A DNA stretch of 63,505 nt, counting the filler, from Kipferlia bialata (lineage: Eukaryota): assembly GCA_003568945.1 (NCBI GenBank). It is 6 parts of 6 records of this genome, joined end to end, with 100 filler letters (N's around TTAATTAATTAA, not from the genome) between each part and the next. Parts side by side here need not be neighbours in the genome. Positions count along the whole stretch, not along the records: positions 12,095 to 24,085 come from BDIP01001148.1; 5 more parts are not named here. One strand, 5' to 3'. The notes below the pieces were generated by a model. That model saw only the letters and a list, made by a program, of their open reading frames with translations. It did not search any database and was not told the origin of the DNA. Shown in pieces: positions 23,401-24,085 of the stretch. Positions within the stretch are counted from its first letter, which is position 1. Each line of letters starts with the position of its first letter. The translations under genes were made by a program, and so were the position numbers.

Positions 23401-23848
23401 TACTCACTCCCACCCTCCGTGCTCCTGAGGGCAGAGGCAGAGACAGAGGTGAGGGAGGGGATGTCGTTGGCCTGGGGGACAAAGAACCCCTCACGGGTTA
23501 GGCCATTGACCCTAGATACCGGGACCTTCTCCATACCCTGCGGTTAGATACTCTGATGTGACACAACATACACTGACACTGTACTGAAGATACATATATA
23601 TACACAACTCATACCTGAGAGTACACGGTGAGTGACATCGCGCTGTTGGTTGCGTCCTCATAGAGCCCAGACACCATGACCAGTCCATCCCCAGTGTCTG
23701 ATGTAGATAGGGGTGCCACCAGCTCTGAGGTGTCTAGGGCATAGCACACACCACCGAGGCGACTGTAGCTGGGTATCTCTGAGCCATCGTCCAGCTCCAT
23801 CCTGACAAAGCCCATGCCGTCATCACCGCCCATACGGGTATACAGCAA
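17485..23848 (-). CDS. Very large Thr/Ser-rich beta-sandwich (Ig/filamin-like repeat) extracellular-type protein with an EGF-like motif; 5' end in gap
   Basis: Exons include a ~3.6-kb terminal exon (1208-aa ORF). EGF-like CNGSYAYGGFCLCQGASHGSQC. Repeated Ig-like strands with DxxG turns (TLYDAYGG, DVVDLEGTP, YLHDAVG, PIAGESLTVTASLY). Introns confirmed, e.g. 23538-23614. Confidence 0.8.
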
Positions 23849-24085
23849 CTGGAATGAGATACAAGACAAAGAGAGAGAGATAAAACCCATGCCGTCATCA
23901 CCGCCCATACGTGTATACAGCAGCTAGTATTAGAGAGGGGAGGAGGGGAGGAAGAGATAGAGAGAGAGAGAGAGGCAAAGCCCATGCCGTCGTCACCTCC
24001 CATACGGGTATAGAGTAGCTGGTATTAGAGAGAGGGGGGGGGGGAGAGAGAGAGAGAGAGAGAGACAAAGCCCATGCCGTCGTCA
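23805..24085 (-). repeat. Tandem echo copies of an acceptor plus exon start (LLYTRMGGDDGMGF)
   Basis: Functional exon start at 23848, with copies at ~23884-23927, ~23976-24022 and a partial copy at ~24066-24085, separated by (CT)n. Confidence 0.9.

What the first reader, a model, noticed from the sequence alone, without database searches (positions are those of the whole stretch)
23805..24085. Acceptor echoes with only silent changes in LLYTRMGGDDGMGF
Minus strand. Functional exon: TTG CTG TAT ACC CGT ATG GGC GGT GAT GAC GGC ATG GGC TTT. The copy at ~23884-23927 differs by TTG>CTG, ACC>ACA, GGC>GGT. The copy at ~23976-24022 differs by TTG>CTA, CTG>CTC, GGC>GGA, GAT>GAC. All seven changed codons are synonymous over 14 codons. 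Each copy keeps ctaata(c)yag and then runs into (CT)n.
Basis: seen in the sequence. Interest (0 to 1): 0.78.

Follow-up and report, generated by a model that had tools for sequence, protein, structure and literature searches.

The report
Skipped splice-junction copies in a protist
An intron in a free-living protist holds stacked copies of the next exon's first 14 codons that the main messenger RNA skips; this is a known kind of repeat, common in this stretch of DNA, and its mostly silent differences likely built up in working versions of the exon rather than in the copies themselves.

Summary
Two whole copies and one cut copy of the acceptor plus first 42 nt of a Kipferlia bialata exon lie in the intron, and all seven changed codons are silent. 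One full-depth DNA contig joins the exon and the first copy, so separate haplotypes are unlikely. The main RNA contig splices to the last acceptor and skips the copies. This is a 'mirage' (amphioxus; human F7 VNTR), and the scan has found the class before in animal genomes. It is not special to this site: 36 splice sites in the window carry 53 scored copies. Excluding this array, 49 of 98 differences are silent (neutral 25%; dead copy beside a constrained exon 40%), pN/pS 0.34 (0.24-0.48). Selection on the working exon explains most of the bias. The modest excess, with GT/AG kept in 47 of 49 copies, likely means copies also come from other alleles' working exons; this is untested. This array is the tail of that distribution (7 of 9, P 0.09). 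New here: the host (a short-intron fornicate), the density and the excess.

The parts
23615..23848 (-). Working exon (234 nt, LLYTRMGGDDGMGFVRMELD...) of a large protein with no Pfam match (P0001, KIPB_005064)
   Evidence: RNA contig covers 23614-23851 and splices on; the spliced model equals P0001 after LLYTR
23849..23858 (-). Working branch/acceptor ctcattccag
   Evidence: RNA loose end at 23851; matrix score 8.5
23859..23881 (-). Spacer 1, (CT)n-rich intron tail; with copy 1 it makes a 75-nt, stop-free, in-frame unit
23882..23933 (-). Copy 1: acceptor ctaatactag (23933-23924, score 10.0) plus 42-nt exon copy with 3 silent codon changes
   Evidence: on the same DNA contig as the exon (record 7)
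23934..23976 (-). Spacer 2, (CT)n and C-rich
23977..24028 (-). Copy 2: acceptor ctaataccag (24028-24019, score 8.4) plus 42-nt exon copy with 4 silent codon changes; out of frame with the exon
24029..24066 (-). Spacer 3, GTC then (TC)n and a C run
24067..24085 (-). Copy 3, cut by the scaffold end; one silent change (GAT>GAC) in the part seen
   Evidence: a 600-nt DNA contig at depth 499 likely carries its remainder (record 8; inference)
24086..24185 (.). Artificial linker between scaffolds; DNA beyond it is not contiguous with the gene
   Evidence: same N44-TTAATTAATTAA-N44 pattern at five places, segments of falling length; segment 12095-24085 equals the 11991-nt contig listed for P0001

Best explanation
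These are tandem copies of an intron-exon boundary ('mirages') that the main mRNA skips, and their differences from the exon are mostly silent, likely because most of those differences arose in working, selected versions of the exon. Shown: unit = (CT)n intron tail + branch/acceptor + about 45 nt of exon, 75-95 nt long; present in DNA at single-copy depth; the 3'-most acceptor is used although copy 1's scores higher. Inferred: copies arise and turn over by misaligned recombination or slippage at the simple-repeat intron tail; they are tolerated because the splice site nearest the intact exon wins (exon-side pairing). Inferred: selection on the working exon alone raises the silent share from 25% to at most 40%. 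The rest (50-52% seen) likely comes from unequal exchange that puts edges of other alleles' working exons into the array, so that silent sites and intron flanks differ while replacement sites and GT/AG do not.
For:: DNA record 7 (1370 nt, depth 479; neighbours 459-515) spans 22714-23943 with one other letter and no gap; RNA record 11 (6979 nt, depth 216) leaves the window at 23851, and its loose end, read by hand, is in frame; 33 arrays with confident frame, 48 copies, 56 of 107 variants silent; without this array 49 of 98, pN/pS 0.335 (bootstrap over arrays 0.24-0.48; 1.7% of resamples reach 0.5); donors 30 of 59 and acceptors 26 of 47 alike. Frame-free test: 111 of 284 pairs of variable columns lie a multiple of 3 apart, permutation P 0.006. 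Pairwise pS 0.207, pN 0.052. GT/AG kept in 47 of 49 copies (39 expected if the copy alone had decayed by pS/2, P 0.002; 44 expected at the pN level); intron flanks differ by 18% in the 15 of 35 arrays where they still align and are no closer than unrelated introns in 20 of 35. One four-gamete violation in the five-copy array at 35328; exchange inside one chromosome gives pN/pS below 0.5 only with more than three copies; 24 of 33 arrays have one. PMC8516963 (passages): metamonads lack the NHEJ proteins.
Against: The excess over the dead-copy model is modest: P 0.03 without this array, 0.10 if the array at 35328 is also left out (ts/tv weight 2); single-copy arrays alone span 0.17-0.53, and scaffold 4 gives only 11 of 29 silent. 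Variants private to one copy are 13 of 34 silent without this array (pN/pS 0.49), which fits the simple model. Allele capture needs silent allele divergence of 10-18%; no second haplotype or strain was seen, and the contigs differ from the window at one clear site in 11.9 kb (contigs drop rare variants). Only this array's frame and splice site are RNA-checked; 5 more agree with the annotated protein P0002, the rest rest on a codon model. X1 may be the source of the assembly.
Confidence: 0.5

Rival explanations
1. Plain dead mirages: each copy has decayed neutrally since duplication, only the working exon is constrained, and the all-silent look of this array and the small window-wide excess are chance plus selection of the most striking case.
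For: Predicts up to 40% silent against 25% neutral, which covers most of the effect. Two stop-codon variants and 51 replacement variants occur in copies. Farthest copy is more diverged than the nearest in 6 of 9 multi-copy arrays. Private variants fit pN/pS 0.49.
Against: 49 of 98 silent exceeds the model's upper bound (P 0.03; bootstrap 0.017); GT/AG retention 47 of 49; exon C against copy T occurs at 14 of 113 third positions but 0 of 126 first and second positions, where 7.8 are expected.
Confidence: 0.3
2. The copies are used at low level as alternative acceptors or small cassette exons, so selection keeps their peptide; copy 1 would add 25 residues in frame.
For: Copy 1 is 75 nt from the working acceptor, in frame and stop-free, with the higher acceptor score. 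A minor X2 contig (depth 2.35 against 216) covers 23912. 6 of 12 acceptor copies with a strong GT near their end have it at a multiple of 3.
Against: The main RNA contig skips all copies. The 7-mers after codon 14 score -9.0, -9.0 and -2.9 as donors; real donors score -0.3 or more. Copy 2 is out of frame yet equally silent. Only 14 of 35 nearest units are a multiple of 3 and 6 of 36 are also stop-free. Only 1 of 28 donor copies has a strong acceptor in front. Depth arithmetic puts the minor contig at about 138 nt, past copy 1's acceptor, which suits unspliced RNA or DNA (rough).
Confidence: 0.12
3. Assembly artefact: alleles or paralogues of the exon were strung together through (CT)n repeats at a scaffold end.
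For: The array sits at a scaffold end, in simple repeats; silent differences are what alleles show; PMC5874029 (passage) reads the k-mer spectrum as diploid; only contigs, possibly from the same reads, were available.
Against: A separate contig assembly carries exon and copy 1 in one record at full, not half, depth. Most of the 36 arrays lie inside scaffolds. P0001 has no other match at E 0.001 among proteins of 675-2151 aa.
Confidence: 0.04

Closest known systems
Amphioxus 'mirage' minisatellites (Adh3; globins BflGb6, BflGb9), PMC3087553, passages read
   Same: [quoted passage not shown]
   Different: Here a short-intron fornicate protist, at dozens of sites in 62 kb, mostly 1-4 copies of 59-135 nt. 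The passages seen give no silent/replacement analysis. Length polymorphism is shown there and untested here.
Human boundary-spanning VNTRs: F7 IVS7 37 bp, CBS IVS13, lamin B2 100 bp, PDGF 81 bp; PMC1557585, passages read
   Same: Reiterated splice sites stay silent; the site next to the intact exon is chosen.
   Different: Donor side, near-identical copies with little exon (4 nt in F7), few genes per genome.
Human CBS 844ins68, PMC4479818, passage read
   Same: Duplication of a splice site at an intron/exon (acceptor) junction, similar size.
   Different: One polymorphic duplication, not a diverged array.
Intron gain by tandem duplication of an exonic AG/GT proto-splice site, PMC2891723, passages read
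   Same: Short tandem duplication in a gene that is removed by splicing.
   Different: There a new intron forms from exon sequence; here copies sit inside an existing intron and include its tail.

Membership tests
Mirage / splice-junction minisatellite | Tandem units that span an intron-exon boundary | tested here: met
   75-, 95-nt units of intron tail + AG + 42-45 nt exon
Mirage / splice-junction minisatellite | Copies mostly keep AG/GT signals | tested here: met
   Both whole copies here; 47 of 49 window-wide
Mirage / splice-junction minisatellite | Regular splicing is not disturbed | tested here: met
   Dominant RNA contig uses the working acceptor; contigs drop rare forms, and the run's RNA status is the tool's guess, backed by 14 spliced-out introns
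Mirage / splice-junction minisatellite | Copy-number instability between haplotypes | not testable with these tools
   Only contigs of one sample hold the locus; no relative in metagenome contigs
Mirage / splice-junction minisatellite | Concerted evolution among copies | tested here: inconclusive
   One four-gamete violation in 4 arrays tested; partial distance gradient, 6 of 9
Duplicated cassette or mutually exclusive exons | Each copy has its own acceptor and donor | tested here: not met
   Donor scores -9.0, -9.0, -2.9 against a real minimum of -0.3
Duplicated cassette or mutually exclusive exons | Copies appear in spliced mRNA | tested here: inconclusive
   Absent from the major contig; a contig at about 1% depth covers copy 1 with unknown ends
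Intron gain by exonic tandem duplication | Duplicated unit is wholly exonic and holds an AG/GT proto-splice site that makes a new intron | tested here: not met
   Units include the old intron tail and lie inside an existing intron

The most novel reading that the evidence does not exclude
Kipferlia introns are an archive of other alleles: out-of-register recombination between diverged chromosomes has parked the edges of working exons from other haplotypes in roughly one splice site in eight, so a single genome records 10-18% silent allele divergence and hidden genetic exchange in a fornicate, and its reduced spliceosome picks sites from the exon side despite short introns.
Probability: 0.3. 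Interest if true: 0.68.

Novelty: new member of a known kind. Interest (0 to 1): 0.36.

Why it matters
The locus itself is an ordinary mirage. What could matter is scale and host. 36 scored sites against about 304 expected in the window (152 introns at the published 2.45 per kb) suggest tens of thousands genome-wide, although only 2 of 15 RNA-checked introns carry one. That gives a ready test of two open points: how a spliceosome with 87 of 174 surveyed proteins (PMC6679479, passages) ignores equal or stronger decoy sites (15 of 35 arrays have one), and whether a free-living fornicate exchanges DNA between diverged alleles. It also warns annotators that such copies mimic exons under selection.

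Tried and rejected
No whole genome was held, so all counts come from the window. No RNA holder was on record; X2 is RNA by the tool's guess. X3 and X4 gave 1 and 0 records: no evidence either way. No RNA check was obtained for arrays outside 12150-24085, so their splice sites and frames are unvalidated. No relative in metagenome contigs. No Pfam family for P0001 or P0002 at E 0.1. Linking the donor copies at 24248-24538 to this intron was rejected: they lie on another scaffold. Cassette reading rejected. In-frame unit lengths are not enriched (14 of 35). Replacement changes are only slightly conservative (BLOSUM62 mean -0.27 against -0.62, P 0.09). Two-way exchange within one chromosome cannot lower pN/pS below 0.5 at three copies or fewer. 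Rows dropped: 7 of 43 hand-picked sites gave no copy above threshold; 3 arrays had unclear frame (5 of 12 silent; with them 61 of 118); one weak candidate (42129) removed; two copies added by hand (24085, 43142); clusters near 11900 and 12150-12350 unscored because the working exon was not identified. Paper searches listed nothing on such repeats in Kipferlia or other protists; the library lacks most subscription papers, the original mirage paper was not read, and no supplements were seen.

Full report
Observation. A third copy is cut at 24085. The seven changed codons are silent. The third copy continues to GTC like the exon, so homology reaches codon 15, where copies 1 and 2 have replacements; the fair count is 7 of 7 over 14 codons or 7 of 9 over 15. 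The N block at 24086-24185 is one of five identical linkers, and the segment 12095-24085 has the length of the contig listed for the window's protein P0001, named Kipferlia bialata KIPB_005064. The upstream exon is therefore outside the window.

Is it real DNA? In run X1 a 1370-nt contig at depth 479 covers 22714-23943 with one other letter and no gap, joining the exon and copy 1; neighbouring contigs have depths 459-515. It runs 105 nt further into a part the tool skipped as repeat. A 600-nt contig at depth 499 holds another copy; its 11-nt loose end fits copy 3 rather than copy 2, so the array likely continues past the scaffold end. Haplotype-specific copies would be expected near half depth. 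X1 may be the source of the assembly and only contigs were available, so this is a second assembly, not independent data.

Is it spliced in? Run X2 (RNA by the tool's guess; it skips 14 GT-AG introns whose spliced models are open and match P0001) has a 6979-nt contig at depth 216 that leaves the window at 23851. Its loose end, read by hand, gives IVVTLQHTSRQ in frame with LLYTR. No copy codon appears in it. A contig at depth 2.35 covers 23912; rough depth arithmetic gives about 138 nt, which would run past copy 1's acceptor. Copy 1 is in frame and stop-free and its acceptor scores 10.0 against 8.5 for the working one on a matrix from the 14 validated introns. None of the copies has a plausible donor after codon 14.

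Is it special? No. A repeat scan found 41 clusters of short local repeats. Of 43 hand-picked splice sites, 36 had copies above threshold (53 copies); the same scan gave 1 hit in 258 unrelated windows. Units are 59-135 nt (median 100, one 267), with a median 26 nt of exon. Both donor and acceptor sides occur. Frames came from stop-free reading plus a codon model trained on the two RNA-checked genes; 33 arrays were confident, and five agree with the annotated P0002. Of 15 RNA-checked introns, 2 carry a copy (this one and a weak one at 13287).

The silent bias. In the 33 arrays 56 of 107 distinct variants are silent; without this array 49 of 98, against 25% for neutral change (P 1e-7) and at most 40% for a dead copy beside a perfectly constrained exon (P 0.03). 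pN/pS is 0.335, bootstrap 0.24-0.48. A frame-free periodicity test agrees (P 0.006). So constraint on the working exon explains most of the bias, and this array is the tail of the distribution (P 0.09 for 7 of 9 at the window-wide share). Three signs point to more: the excess itself; GT/AG kept in 47 of 49 copies; and exon C against copy T at 14 of 113 third positions but 0 of 126 others. Against that: without the two richest arrays P is 0.10, variants private to one copy fit the simple model (13 of 34), scaffold 4 gives 11 of 29, and copies do carry stops and 51 replacements.

Mechanism. Shown: structure, presence in DNA, skipping in the main transcript. Inferred: duplication and turnover by misaligned recombination or slippage in simple-repeat intron ends; metamonads lack the NHEJ proteins and likely lean on homologous repair (PMC8516963, passages). 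Inferred: tolerance because the site nearest the intact exon wins even where a copy scores as well or better (15 of 35 arrays); survivors are biased to such cases. For the excess, exchange within one chromosome needs more than three copies, while 24 of 33 arrays have one; capture from diverged alleles fits if silent allele divergence is 10-18%. That number is a prediction; no second haplotype was seen. PMC5874029 (passages) reports 124,912 introns, 2.45 per kb, and a k-mer spectrum read as diploid; the stem 'duplicat' does not occur in its main text.

Comparison. The anatomy meets the tested features of amphioxus mirages (PMC3087553, passages) and human boundary VNTRs (PMC1557585, passages; CBS 844ins68 in PMC4479818, passage). 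The term came to me from earlier scan notes, which record the class in sea urchins and annelids; one unchecked note gives 43 of 107 silent, lower than here. No note exists for this genome. It is not a cassette-exon array and not intron gain from exonic duplication (PMC2891723, passages). Nine paper searches listed no report of such repeats in Kipferlia or other protists; coverage of that library is partial.

Verdict. Real, known in kind, not translated in the main form. New member of a known kind, interest 0.36, held up by the host, the density and a testable excess of silent change.

Noticed in passing
window 11995-12094, 24086-24185, 36168-36267, 48245-48344, 60321-60420: Identical N44-TTAATTAATTAA-N44 linkers join six unrelated scaffolds of about 12 kb; features across them are not neighbours.
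   Followed up: yes
window 25964 (+), copies at 26096 and 26227: A predicted intron starts GA, not GT, and both copies keep GA; the frame runs on into the exon at 26288. Possible GA-AG intron, or the gene ends here; not RNA-checked.
   Followed up: partly
window 25340-29126 (+): One stretch (its 3' part is annotated as P0002) has copies at about ten exon edges, up to four per site; the densest case in the window. The annotation skips the predicted exon 27476-27540.
   Followed up: partly
window 34817-35484 (-): Five-copy donor array, 10 of 16 variants silent, with a four-gamete violation at 35340/35361.
   Followed up: yes
window 1540-1910 (+): [quoted passage not shown]
   Followed up: no
window 12146-12350 (+): Three copies of a kinase HRDIK donor edge at a scaffold start; the working copy was not identified.
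   Followed up: no
window 13287-13511 and 13783-13911 (+): RNA-checked introns: one skips a weak donor copy 96 nt inside; another holds a purely intronic 47-bp tandem repeat.
   Followed up: partly
window 23447: Both X1 and X2 contigs read G where the window has A (by hand a Ser/Pro difference): an allele or an assembly error.
   Followed up: no
window 17485-23848 (-): P0001 has no Pfam match and no other database match at E 0.001 in the lengths searched; its annotated start lies inside the exon, while the RNA contig has 909 more nt upstream.
   Followed up: partly
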